A stretch of DNA of 64,000 nt from a virus (lineage: Duplodnaviria > Heunggongvirae > Uroviricota > Caudoviricetes): IMG/VR virus record IMGVR_UViG_2511231131_000001. One strand, written 5' to 3'. The translations under genes were made by a program, and so were the position numbers. The stretch's first letter is position 1; every line of letters starts with the position of its first letter. This document shows positions 6,552 to 7,952 of this stretch, one piece after another. The notes under the pieces are model-generated. The model had not been told where the DNA came from. It saw only the letters and a program-made list of their open reading frames with translations, and searched no databases.

Positions 6552-6607
6552 ACGTCAATGCATTAGGGTATACTTCTCCGTAGAACTATAAGTAAATGGA
6601 GTAAGTA

Positions 6608-7432
6608 ATGAGCGAGTATATAGAAATTGCCTATGCAGCGGCTACACATAGGCTGTGCTTTCTTACAGGCACTGGATTTTCAAAGGCTGTTTCTGATGAT
6701 AAAGCCCCAAGTTGGCAATCTTTATTGGAGCAACTGTGCGGTTTATTGAAGGATGGTGACTCACTCAAAGAGGAATTATTTCCTGATGGAAAAGCAAAAG
6801 ACCTTAGCCTTGAAGAAGCTGCTCAGGTTATTGCACTAAAATTTATACTTTCGGGGAAAAATATTTACCAAGAGATTGAGAAAATCATAGCCTCAATCGA
6901 ACTTGATCCATCAATTGAATATATTCAAGACTTTTTCAAAGAAAACACATTTAAAGTAATTACGACAAATTATGACAAGTTAGCAGAAAAGCTGGCTGGA
7001 GAGAATCGAACGTGTACAATCACCCCCGGCCTGCCAATTCCAAAATATAATTGTGAGGTTAAAGTCTACCATGTTCACGGTTCTATAGACTCCCCATCAG
7101 ACATGGTTGTTACTAGCGAGGATTATTTCAGATTTATAAATGGTAATTCTTACTTTTCAAATAAACTAAGCACAGTTCTACATGAAAACACTATTGTTAT
7201 TCTTGGCTATTCTCTAAGTGACGCGAACCTAAAGGCTATTATAAATGAATATAAGGTATTTTCACGGGACAACGTAATGTCCTCCAATATTTTCCTTGTT
7301 TCCCGAGGGGAACTATTGCAACCTATTAAAGATTACTATTTTTCCTGCTATGGGGTTAGGGTTATAGATAAAACAGAGGTATCTGATTTCTTTAGAAAAC
7401 TTAACGATAAAATTCCAGAAGCAAAAAAATAA
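6608..7432 (+). CDS. SIR2-like (SIR2_2 family) protein; candidate NAD+-depleting defence effector
   Basis: 274 aa; motifs LCFLTGTGFSKA, ITTNYD, YHVHGS and ILGYSLSD match my recollection of the SIR2_2 domain; lies in a low-GC block; RBS GGAG upstream. Confidence 0.6.
   Translation: MSEYIEIAYAAATHRLCFLTGTGFSKAVSDDKAPSWQSLLEQLCGLLKDGDSLKEELFPDGKAKDLSLEEAAQVIALKFILSGKNIYQEIEKIIASIELDPSIEYIQDFFKENTFKVITTNYDKLAEKLAGENRTCTITPGLPIPKYNCEVKVYHVHGSIDSPSDMVVTSEDYFRFINGNSYFSNKLSTVLHENTIVILGYSLSDANLKAIINEYKVFSRDNVMSSNIFLVSRGELLQPIKDYYFSCYGVRVIDKTEVSDFFRKLNDKIPEAKK
7423..7429 (+). other. A_AAA_AAA slippery heptamer in the zero frame, immediately before the SIR2 stop codon; possible -1 frameshift or homopolymer indel site
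   Basis: A7 run at 7423-7429; the downstream ORF is in the -1 frame, open from 7411 and lacks an ATG start. Confidence 0.35.
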
Positions 7433-7440
7433 AAGACAAA

Positions 7441-7911
7441 TTGAGGCACTCAATCAAATCGGTAATAAAAAACGGAAGAGAGTATAAAATAGAGTTCTTG
7501 AAGCTAGAGGATTCTTTTTATCATATCATTTCCTCCATTTCATCATCTGGATATAGCTGGAATAATAAAAATGTATTAAATGTTTTTTGTAATATAATAG
7601 ATAAAAAAATAGAACTTACTAAAAAGCCTGGCGCATGGGAGCAGTATGAACACCTGGCAAAATGGCTTATTTATTTCGGTAGTTTATTTGAAGTAAAAGG
7701 AACCAATTTTGAGAAAAAATACATACATGCGGTTGAACACTCAATGACTTATATGAATAAACCTTACGAAACAGGCTACTCATGGCGAGCATATCTAGCC
7801 TGGAAAACAAAATGGCCTTCACTGACAGCATCTAACCGCTCTCTTATTAAGAATGAGATGGAAGATATCCCGCTACAACAGATTCACGATATTGTATCTA
7901 AGTTTATATAG
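7441..7911 (+). CDS. Hypothetical protein, partner or C-terminal extension of the SIR2-like protein (TTG start, or joined by -1 frameshift)
   Basis: 156-aa ORF, AT-rich codon usage, no recognisable domain; frame open from 7411. Confidence 0.45.
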   Translation: MRHSIKSVIKNGREYKIEFLKLEDSFYHIISSISSSGYSWNNKNVLNVFCNIIDKKIELTKKPGAWEQYEHLAKWLIYFGSLFEVKGTNFEKKYIHAVEHSMTYMNKPYETGYSWRAYLAWKTKWPSLTASNRSLIKNEMEDIPLQQIHDIVSKFI

Positions 7912-7919
7912 TATATTTA

Positions 7920-7948
7920 TCTCCGGCCTAATCTCCCTAGGCCGGAGA
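7920..7948. terminator. Hairpin (TCTCCGGCC-11 nt-GGCCGGAGA) between the SIR2 module and the convergent lxc-like gene
   Basis: Perfect 9-bp stem; separates convergent transcription units. Confidence 0.5.
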
Positions 7949-7952
7949 GTTC

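What the first reader, a model, noticed from the sequence alone, without database searches (positions are those of the whole stretch)
6552..7952. Low-GC SIR2-like module at the position where P1 carries its type III restriction-modification genes
Between the mat-position gene and the lxc/ulx/darB block there is a 1.4-kb block of lower GC than its flanks, holding a 274-aa protein with SIR2_2-type motifs (LCFLTGTGFSKA, ITTNYD, YHVHGS, ILGYSLSD) and a 156-aa ORF of no recognisable family, closed by a hairpin. As I recall the P1 map, res and mod occupy this position, so this looks like a defence-hotspot swap. SIR2 domains act as NAD+-depleting effectors in Thoeris, DSR and SIR2-HerA systems, but this pair fits none of those: there is no TIR, HerA, SLOG or pAgo partner. 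It is therefore a candidate uncharacterised abortive-infection or defence system carried by a phage-plasmid.
Basis: partly seen in the sequence, partly recalled or inferred. Interest (0 to 1): 0.85.

Follow-up and report, generated by a model that had tools for sequence, protein, structure and literature searches.

The report
Frameshifted single-gene SIR2 cassette in P1 hotspot
The supposed two-gene module is one 434-residue SIR2-type (NAD-cleaving) gene, probably an anti-phage suicide switch, sitting where phage P1 keeps its restriction genes, and in this plasmid it is broken by a one-base loss in a run of A's.

Summary
The window is the P1-like phage-plasmid p12579_1 of E. coli O55:H7 RM12579. 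The sequence features are real. There is a 1401-nt low-GC cassette (0.356 against 0.478) exactly between the mat and lxc stop codons, a SIR2_2 domain (E 2.5e-23), a strong terminal hairpin, and P1/P7 do carry res-mod at this site.

The "SIR2 + 156-aa partner" reading is wrong. Both ORFs are one gene. Intact alleles in about 55 of 60 sampled plasmids have A8 where the window has A7, giving a 434-aa protein. RefSeq already marks this copy "frameshifted".

The C-terminal 156 aa form a family-specific HEAT-like helical solenoid, found only fused to SIR2_2 in proteins of about 430-480 aa across Gammaproteobacteria. No partner gene is conserved.

The protein keeps the catalytic Asn/His of defence NADases (DSR2, ThsA, KomC). 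It is not a member of any named system by profile or architecture.

The mat-lxc site is a cargo hotspot: empty, res-mod, CapRel-SJ46 (a validated defence), PIN, DUF2971, GNAT, or two SIR2 alleles 57% identical.

The most likely function is a self-contained sensor-effector, a "mini-DSR", that depletes NAD+ on infection. This is inferred, not tested, and the copy here is inactive or mis-sequenced.

Interest is moderate.

The parts
5910..6551 (+). mat (maturation control), the left conserved flank of the cargo site. A longer ORF starts at 5799.
   Evidence: phrog_1837 match. RefSeq CDS 5910-6551. Position equivalent to P1 mat 2716-3468.
6552..6607 (+). 56-nt leader of the cassette with a GGAG ribosome-binding site. 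No clear sigma-70 promoter was detected.
   Evidence: Sequence. Nearly identical between the two 57%-identical SIR2 alleles. The promoter scan found no + strand site upstream.
6608..7432 (+). 5' part of the SIR2 gene (residues 1-274, the full SIR2_2 Rossmann domain), ending at a premature TAA created by the frameshift. Catalytic Asn121 and His157.
   Evidence: Pfam SIR2_2 E 2.5e-23. phrog_7567 positions 1-274 of 434. N121 and H157 are invariant in 36 homologues and align with DSR2 N133/H171.
7423..7429 (+). A7 homopolymer, the frameshift site. Intact alleles have A8 here.
   Evidence: Pairwise alignment with NZ_CP122597.1. Further indel variants at the same tract in other plasmids. 55 of 60 sampled records are in frame.
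7429..7911 (+). 3' part of the same gene in the -1 frame (residues 275-434 of the intact protein; listed as a 156-aa TTG ORF from 7441). All-alpha HEAT-like solenoid, the presumed sensor/regulatory domain.
7920..7948 (+). GC-rich hairpin between the convergent SIR2 and lxc genes, a likely bidirectional terminator. It is part of the cassette.
   Evidence: Terminator scan. -20.8 kcal/mol, z -4.55. Every cargo variant, and the empty site, has its own hairpin here.
7953..8201 (-). lxc (modulator of C1), the right conserved flank of the cargo site.
   Evidence: phrog_2160. 97% identical to P1 lxc. P1 map.
8198..15439 (-). ulx (8198-8638) and darB (8672-15439), P1 backbone anti-restriction genes next to the hotspot.
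   Evidence: phrog_1629 Ulx-like. RefSeq N-6 DNA methylase. P1 and P7 maps.

Best explanation
The block 6552-7952 is a single-gene cargo cassette in the mat-lxc ('res-mod') variable site of a P1-like phage-plasmid.

Its gene encodes, when intact, a 434-aa protein in two parts. The N-terminal part is a SIR2_2 domain with the Asn/His catalytic pair of bacterial defence NADases. After a long linker helix comes a family-specific ~150-aa HEAT-like helical solenoid.

The most likely mechanism is inferred by analogy with DSR2 and with the fused toxin-sensor CapRel-SJ46, which sits at the same site in phage SJ46. In the lysogen the solenoid domain holds the SIR2 domain inactive. Binding of a protein from an infecting phage relieves this. 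The SIR2 domain, probably as an oligomer, then hydrolyses NAD+ and aborts the infection, protecting the P1-like element and its host population.

In this plasmid the gene is interrupted by loss of one A from an A8 tract. Only a 274-aa SIR2 domain without its regulatory half is predicted, and ORF2 has no ribosome-binding site. This copy is therefore either recently inactivated or mis-sequenced at the homopolymer.

Shown: one gene, the frameshift, the domain architecture, the hotspot, and conservation of the catalytic residues. Inferred: NADase activity, phage sensing and the defence phenotype.
For: One gene:
- phrog_7567 (434 aa) spans both ORFs.
- The only difference at the junction is A7 versus A8, and the intact allele translates to 434 aa.
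- RefSeq flags the copy 'frameshifted'.
- 55 of 60 plasmid records are in frame.
- The closest records differ only by the indel (99.9% identity over 1402 nt).

Family:
- 656 homologues were found. The top 120 are almost all 431-437 aa, at 54-61% identity and 93-100% query coverage outside the near-identical cluster, from many Gammaproteobacteria and Delftia.
- The C-terminal domain occurs only with SIR2_2.

NADase kinship:
- The best sequence and fold matches are DSR2, ThsA and KomC.
- N121 and H157 are invariant and align with DSR2 N133/H171, which are essential for NAD+ cleavage.
- There is no hit to the classical sirtuin Pfam model.

Sensor-like C-terminus:
- It is an alpha-solenoid.
- It is more divergent than the SIR2 domain: 57% against 69% mean pairwise identity.

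Defence context:
- The same site carries type III R-M in P1 and P7 and CapRel-SJ46 in SJ46.
- Other cargos at the site are PIN, DUF2971 and GNAT proteins and a second SIR2 allele.
- Distant members lie at a prophage end next to the integrase, beside HsdR and GmrSD, beside a NERD-UvrD helicase and DUF2971, and in an HNH/DUF87/STAND island.
- No partner gene is conserved across these contexts.
Against: - There are no experimental data for this family. No paper was found.
- PADLOC and NCBIfam have no full-length model for it. The PDC-S25 match covers only the SIR2 core, profile positions 127-278 of 517.
- Some homologues sit among housekeeping genes.
- No own promoter was detected upstream. Expression in the lysogen is therefore unproven, and transcription might come from the C1-controlled or late mat promoters.
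- The solenoid fold is generic and did not specifically match the DSR2 C-terminal domain.
- The copy in the window is disrupted.
Confidence: 0.6

Rival explanations
1. The frameshift is a homopolymer sequencing or assembly error. The real plasmid carries the intact A8 allele and a working 434-aa gene.
For: The window differs from the closest intact records only by the one A (99.9% identity). With A8 restored, the tract would tie for the longest A or T run in the window, where only one other A8 exists. Other records show implausible variants at the same tract (A12 and A14 with the T lost), which look like long-read homopolymer errors. From my own memory, unverified: RM12579 was sequenced by pyrosequencing, which miscounts long homopolymers.
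Against: No other gene in 14-64 kb of the record is flagged as frameshifted, so the assembly is not generally error-prone. The same A7 state is seen in an independent sub-lineage, RM10386. Loss-of-function in a costly NADase gene is biologically plausible.
Confidence: 0.3
2. The A-tract is functional. Either a programmed -1 ribosomal frameshift or transcriptional slippage on A_AAA_AAA_UAA gives both a 274-aa and a 434-aa product, or it acts as a phase-variable on/off switch for a costly defence gene.
For: A_AAA_AAA followed by a stop codon is a classic slippery context, and a -1 slip yields exactly the intact protein. Length variation recurs at this tract in about 8% of sampled records, including two sub-lineages with A7.
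Against: About 92% of records are simply in frame with A8. The second allele at the same site and the distant homologues have no A-tract at the domain junction. No significant downstream RNA structure is present (z 0.01), and no Shine-Dalgarno-like stimulator lies upstream. Some of the variants are probably sequencing artefacts.
Confidence: 0.07
3. A two-gene system as first proposed: a 274-aa SIR2 effector plus a separate 156-aa partner protein.
For: The ORF calls in this window. A few other records are annotated as 'SIR2 family protein | hypothetical protein'.
Against: Those split annotations all trace to indels. The intact state is a single ORF in most plasmids and in all distant homologues. 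ORF2 starts at TTG with no ribosome-binding site.
Confidence: 0.02
4. A non-defence role. The protein is a NAD-dependent protein deacylase or ADP-ribosyltransferase that modifies a host or phage protein for the benefit of the P1-like element (lysogeny control, counter-defence or plasmid maintenance), as the RefSeq name 'NAD-dependent protein deacylase' implies.
For: The RefSeq product name. It lies adjacent to anti-restriction genes ulx and darB. It may be co-transcribed with mat. Some homologues are in non-island contexts.
Against: There is no match to the classical sirtuin model. The nearest relatives by sequence and fold are all defence NADases. The gene is dispensable and swappable at a site that holds R-M and CapRel. 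The RefSeq name is a generic family label.
Confidence: 0.15

Closest known systems
DSR2 (defence-associated sirtuin 2, Bacillus subtilis)
   Same: A single polypeptide with an N-terminal SIR2 NADase domain and a helical solenoid C-terminal region. It gives the best fold and sequence matches. The catalytic Asn/His pair is conserved. DSR2 is autoinhibited until a phage protein (tail tube) binds the solenoid.
CapRel-SJ46 (fused toxin-antitoxin defence of Salmonella phage SJ46)
   Same: It occupies exactly the same mat-lxc site of a P1-like phage, on the same strand, as a single-gene low-GC cassette with its own terminator hairpin. It follows the same logic: an N-terminal toxic enzyme and a C-terminal autoinhibitory sensor in one chain.
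   Different: The fold and chemistry are unrelated: a RelA/SpoT tRNA pyrophosphokinase against a SIR2 NADase. CapRel is experimentally validated and this protein is not.
Thoeris ThsA
   Same: The SIR2 domain is homologous (PADLOC ThsA HMM E 4e-18; PDB 7uxt, 6lhx, 8bto).
   Different: There is no SLOG/STALD domain. The C-terminus is all-alpha, and the ThsA HMM match stops at profile position 215 of 478. No ThsB/TIR gene is adjacent.
PADLOC candidate PDC-S25 / phrog_2695 (about 520-aa SIR2 proteins)
   Same: It is the best PADLOC hit (E 6.6e-26) and, like this gene, a single-gene SIR2 candidate.
   Different: The match covers only the SIR2 core (profile 127-278 of 517), so the C-terminal halves are unrelated. 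PDC-S25 is itself only a candidate.
EcoP1I / EcoP7I type III restriction-modification (res-mod of P1 and P7)
   Same: It occupies the same genomic slot between mat and lxc and is likewise low-GC accessory cargo.
   Different: It is unrelated in sequence, gene number, orientation (res-mod is on the minus strand) and mechanism.

Membership tests
Pfam SIR2_2 (PF13289) superfamily | Score above the gathering threshold over the full domain | tested here: met
   83.2 bits against a cutoff of 24.5, profile positions 3-141 of 141. The same holds in allele 2 and in distant members.
Defence-type SIR2 NADases (general) | Catalytic Asn and His equivalent to DSR2 N133/H171 and ThsA N113/H153 | tested here: met
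   N121 (TTNYD) and H157 (HVHGS) are invariant in 36 homologues and align with the DSR2 motifs. Their role in DSR2 is described in PMC11087589.
Defence-type SIR2 NADases (general) | NAD+ hydrolysis and phage protection demonstrated | not testable with these tools
   Needs a wet-lab assay. No publication was found.
DSR2 | Full-length match to the Dsr2 equivalog (about 1000-1200 aa, SIR2 + middle domain + C-terminal domain) | tested here: not met
   NCBIfam NF041819 scores 30.3 bits against a cutoff of 1400, covering residues 117-212 only. The protein is 434 aa.
DSR1 | Full-length match to the Dsr1 equivalog | tested here: not met
   NF041818 scores 21.2 bits against a cutoff of 1400.
Thoeris (ThsA/ThsB) | SLOG/STALD ligand-binding domain C-terminal to SIR2 | tested here: not met
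   The ThsA HMM aligns only to profile positions 107-215 of 478. The C-terminus is an all-alpha solenoid.
Thoeris (ThsA/ThsB) | Adjacent TIR-domain ThsB gene | tested here: not met
   The neighbours are mat, lxc, ulx and darB, none with a TIR hit. No TIR neighbour was seen in six other contexts.
SIR2-HerA (Nezha) | Adjacent HerA-type ATPase partner | tested here: not met
   None is present in the window or in most homologue contexts. One Halomonas island has a DUF87 gene about 2.6 kb downstream, separated from the SIR2 gene by three other genes.
Kongming (KomABC) | KomA and KomB partners with a roughly 264-aa SIR2 KomC | tested here: not met
   Only the SIR2 fold is similar. There are no partner genes, and the protein has an extra fused domain.
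PADLOC PDC-S25 | HMM match over most of the 517-aa profile | tested here: not met
   The match is limited to profile positions 127-278.
Classical sirtuin protein deacylases (CobB/Sir2, PF02146) | Match to the PF02146 sirtuin model | tested here: not met
   No PF02146 hit at E <= 0.1.
Classical sirtuin protein deacylases (CobB/Sir2, PF02146) | Zn-ribbon module with four conserved cysteines | tested here: not met
   Only two invariant Cys (C17, C44) are present in the family alignment, with no four-cysteine cluster.
AbiH | Pfam AbiH above the gathering threshold | tested here: not met
   17.4 bits against a cutoff of 30.9.
P1-like 'res-mod' variable region / cargo hotspot | Conserved flanks (mat, lxc) with alternative cargos in related elements | tested here: met
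   About 701 plasmids share the flanks. The cargos are: none, res-mod-sized inserts, CapRel, GNAT, PIN, DUF2971, IS1, and SIR2 alleles a and b. The region is described as variable region 1 in PMC9603915 and as a low-GC hot-spot in PMC6906374.

The most novel reading that the evidence does not exclude
The intact 434-aa protein founds an unrecognised, self-contained anti-phage family: a 'mini-DSR' that joins a SIR2 NADase to a compact solenoid sensor and is less than half the size of DSR1/2. It is carried by roughly one in six P1-like phage-plasmids. The mat-lxc slot would then be a single-gene defence-cassette hotspot, whose other uncharacterised cargos (PIN, DUF2971, GNAT proteins, a second SIR2 allele) are likewise defences. 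The A8 tract would offer a mutational off-switch for a costly suicide enzyme.
Probability: 0.45. Interest if true: 0.6.

Novelty: new variant of a known kind. Interest (0 to 1): 0.42.

Why it matters
If the intact gene is a working defence, it would be one of the smallest single-chain SIR2 sensor-effectors. That would make it a tractable model for how a short helical domain gates an NADase.

It would also show that a very common class of E. coli and Salmonella phage-plasmids exchanges one-gene immune cassettes at a fixed slot, the same slot that yielded CapRel-SJ46. The slot could then be mined systematically for new defences.

For this particular window the practical message is more modest. 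The locus is a frameshifted copy, and the 'orphan partner ORF' is an artefact of that frameshift.

Tried and rejected
1. Two-gene system: rejected by the A7/A8 alignment, the PHROG coverage and the homologue architecture.

2. Programmed frameshift: considered because A_AAA_AAA_TAA gives the exact fusion. Rejected as the norm because most alleles are in frame, allele 2 lacks the tract, and no stimulatory structure is present.

3. Conserved partner gene: six chromosomal or island contexts were examined and none recurs.

4. C-terminal domain shared with other effectors: an exhaustive phmmer search of 1.84 billion representatives found it only in SIR2_2 proteins or fragments.

6. Phage genome relatives: none close in INPHARED by DNA or tblastn, and none in BFVD.

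7. Literature: ten full-text searches found no characterisation of this family or of SIR2 at the P1 site. They found only the CapRel papers and two comparative papers naming res-mod as a variable region.

8. The afdb50 fold library was unavailable.

9. A local script failed once because a locus file had not yet synchronised. The comparison was redone with DNA alignment.
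Full report
**Identity of the window.** The block 6552-7952 is 100% identical, at the same coordinates, to plasmid p12579_1 (NC_017653.1, 94,015 bp) of E. coli O55:H7 strain RM12579. The surrounding genes are the P1 backbone:
- cra, cre and c8
- a 5'-truncated ref (Pfam RecA_dep_nuc)
- mat (phrog_1837)
- lxc (phrog_2160), ulx (phrog_1629) and darB

**Checking the observation.**
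- The two ORFs exist as described: 6608-7432 (274 aa) and 7441-7911 (156 aa, TTG start).
- All four quoted motifs are in ORF1.
- ORF1 matches Pfam SIR2_2 over the entire profile (E 2.5e-23, 83 bits against a cutoff of 24.5).
- The GC dip is real. GC is 0.356 for 6552-7952 against 0.478 for the window (sd 0.037 for 1401-nt windows), and only 1.2% of such windows are as low.
- The closing hairpin is real: an 11-bp stem at 7920-7948, -20.8 kcal/mol, z = -4.55 against shuffles.
- The recalled P1 map is correct. In P1 and P7, res and mod lie between mat and lxc.

**One gene, not two.**
- PHROG family phrog_7567 has a 434-residue profile. ORF1 aligns to positions 1-274 and ORF2 to positions 279-434.
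- ORF1 ends on gcA AAA AAA TAA, a run of seven A at 7423-7429.
- In plasmid NZ_CP122597.1, 99.8% identical over the block, the only difference at the junction is an eighth A. The gene then reads through as one 434-aa protein...PEAKK-IKDK-LRHSIKS....
- RefSeq annotates 6608-7911 of this very record as a single 'frameshifted' pseudogene, 'SIR2 family NAD-dependent protein deacylase'.
- ORF2 has a TTG start with no Shine-Dalgarno sequence, so it is unlikely to be translated on its own.
- The 156-aa 'ORF of no recognisable family' is therefore the C-terminal domain of the SIR2 protein.

**How common is the break?**
- Of 60 plasmid records listed for a 261-nt junction probe, 55 have the in-frame length, four (including this one) are one base short, and one is one base long.
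- The closest records (99.9% identity over 1402 nt) differ from the window by the indel alone. The lesion is therefore very recent or an artefact.
- With A8 restored, the tract would tie for the longest A or T homopolymer in the 64-kb window.
- No other gene in 14-64 kb of the record is flagged as frameshifted.
- I cannot decide between a genuine loss-of-function slip and a homopolymer sequencing error.

**A programmed -1 frameshift is unlikely to be the design.**
- A_AAA_AAA before a stop codon would give exactly the fused product.
- However, most alleles are simply in frame.
- The second allele has no A-tract at the junction.
- The downstream RNA is no more structured than shuffles (z = 0.01).

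**The protein family.**
- The intact protein retrieves 656 homologues at E < 1e-5. Outside the near-identical cluster, the top 120 are almost all 431-437 aa, at 54-61% identity and 93-100% query coverage. They come from Vibrio, Halomonas, Xenorhabdus, Marinobacter, Klebsiella, Pseudoalteromonas, Pantoea, Pseudomonas, Idiomarina, Stutzerimonas and Delftia.
- Invariant residues include GTGFSK, TTNYD (Asn121) and H-x-HGS (His157).
- These align with the DSR2 motifs holding N133 and H171. Mutating those residues abolishes NAD+ cleavage in DSR2 (PMC11087589).
- The AlphaFold2 model (pLDDT 81, pTM 0.77) shows a Rossmann-type SIR2 domain up to about residue 255, a long helix at 258-289, and a helical C-terminal domain.
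- The Foldseek PDB hits are DSR2, KomC and ThsA. All match through the SIR2 domain, as do the sequence matches.

**The C-terminal domain.**
- Modelled alone from the window's ORF2, it is confident (pLDDT 88, pTM 0.85).
- An exhaustive phmmer search of 1.84 billion representative proteins found this domain in only 73 clusters. It always sits at about residues 280-440 of 420-480-aa proteins, or in shorter fragments.
- All ten members tested, down to 26-28% identity, carry SIR2_2 N-terminally.
- It is somewhat more divergent than the SIR2 domain: mean pairwise identity 0.57 against 0.69.

**Membership tests.** Every named SIR2 defence system tested fails (details are in the membership table).
- Dsr2 and Dsr1 NCBIfam equivalogs score 30 and 21 bits against cutoffs of 1400.
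- The ThsA HMM covers only the SIR2 core, and there is neither a SLOG domain nor a TIR neighbour.
- There are no HerA, KomA/B, LmuB/C or pAgo partners.
- The best PADLOC match, candidate PDC-S25, covers only profile positions 127-278 of 517.
- There is no hit to the classical sirtuin model, and AbiH is below threshold.
- The protein therefore works like a DSR-type fused sensor-NADase, but it is a distinct, compact family.

**Genomic context.** No partner gene is conserved.
- E. coli chromosomes: the 56%-identical homologue lies at a prophage end beside the integrase.
- Marinobacter: beside a type I HsdR and GmrSD.
- Halomonas: in an island with HNH, DUF4145, DUF87 and STAND-like genes.
- Stutzerimonas: between a NERD-UvrD helicase and a DUF2971 protein.
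- Pantoea and Pseudoalteromonas: more isolated.
- Overall this is suggestive of a stand-alone mobile defence gene, but it is circumstantial.

**The hotspot.** A probe spanning the mat 3' end, the cassette and lxc hits about 701 plasmids, almost all Escherichia or Salmonella and mostly non-mobilizable, P1-like. Between the conserved flanks they carry one of the following:
- nothing, only about 40 nt with a hairpin (for example pO111_2)
- this SIR2 allele (64 records)
- a second SIR2 allele of 435 aa, 57% identical along its whole length (about 58 records)
- RelA/SpoT proteins
- GNAT, PIN or DUF2971 proteins
- IS1
- large inserts such as res-mod

The SJ46 RelA/SpoT gene at this site is 373 aa with Tyr155 in a GYSG motif. 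That matches CapRel-SJ46, described as 1-272 plus 273-373 with a Y155A catalytic mutant. CapRel-SJ46 is a validated single-chain toxin-sensor defence encoded by Salmonella phage SJ46 (PMC9712102).

Each cargo brings its own hairpin just before the lxc stop. The 56-nt leader is almost identical between the two SIR2 alleles.

The site is already described as 'variable region 1 (res-mod)' and as a low-GC hot-spot in comparative studies of P1-like elements. Neither study mentions SIR2 (PMC9603915; PMC6906374). No deposited phage genome in the phage collection carries a close homologue, and BFVD has no structural relative.

**Interpretation.** The best-supported reading is a single-gene cargo cassette encoding a self-contained SIR2 NADase with a fused helical sensor/regulator. 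It is most likely an abortive-infection defence carried by P1-like phage-plasmids, and it is inactivated or mis-sequenced in this record by A8 to A7. The NADase activity, the trigger and the phenotype are all inferred.

One open point is expression. No sigma-70-like promoter was found upstream on the + strand. Transcription may therefore depend on mat promoters, or on a weak promoter in the conserved leader.

**Novelty and score.** The gene is annotated in RefSeq, the frameshift is flagged, and the site is known to be variable. The following appear undescribed in the literature I could search:
- the family's fixed SIR2-solenoid architecture
- its exclusion from all named systems
- its frequency at the P1 slot (about 124 of 701 plasmids)
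- its equivalence of position with CapRel-SJ46

I rate it a new variant of a known kind, of moderate interest (0.42).

Noticed in passing
window 1830-5384: A roughly 3.5-kb non-P1 insert lies between c8 and a 5'-truncated ref. It holds a frameshifted recombinase pseudogene (2178-2817), an ester cyclase (2924-3307, -), a GlxA/AraC-type regulator (3334-4323, -) and an MBL-fold hydrolase (4339-5115, -). Relatives such as ETEC6335 have an intact ref and no insert.
   Followed up: partly
window 43100-44800: This is the lowest-GC stretch of the window (about 0.33). It holds two hypothetical genes (43444-44223 and 44231-44548, both -) with no PADLOC hit and only a sub-threshold tRNA_anti-like OB match. 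It lies next to the only A8 tract in the window (44752-44759) and may be another cargo site.
   Followed up: partly
window 7912-7952; L017 1867-1917; L015 2887-2923; L023 603-641: Every variant of the mat-lxc site, including the empty one, keeps a different GC-rich hairpin immediately before the lxc stop codon. A terminator between the convergent genes therefore seems to be required and travels with each cargo.
   Followed up: partly
window 6552-6620 against L017 503-575: The 56-nt leader and the first few codons are nearly identical between two SIR2 alleles whose proteins are only 57% identical. This suggests either a recombination breakpoint at the start of the gene or a conserved regulatory leader. 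SJ46's CapRel cassette shares a partial motif (TTAGGG/TTAGGT) there.
   Followed up: no
plasmid hits H226-H232; L020 9407-10237: A DUF2971 protein is an alternative cargo at the P1 mat-lxc site. A weak DUF2971 match is also the immediate downstream neighbour of a SIR2-family member in a Stutzerimonas contig. This is a possible recurring association of uncharacterised defence candidates.
   Followed up: no
plasmid hits H216, H218, H224, H225: Other single-gene cargos at the same slot are a GNAT acetyltransferase and a PIN-domain protein. None was examined further.
   Followed up: no
window 56907-57716 (-): A GIY-YIG nuclease family gene lies between the parA-type ATPase gene and the RepB-type replication initiator gene. 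It has no PADLOC match.
   Followed up: partly
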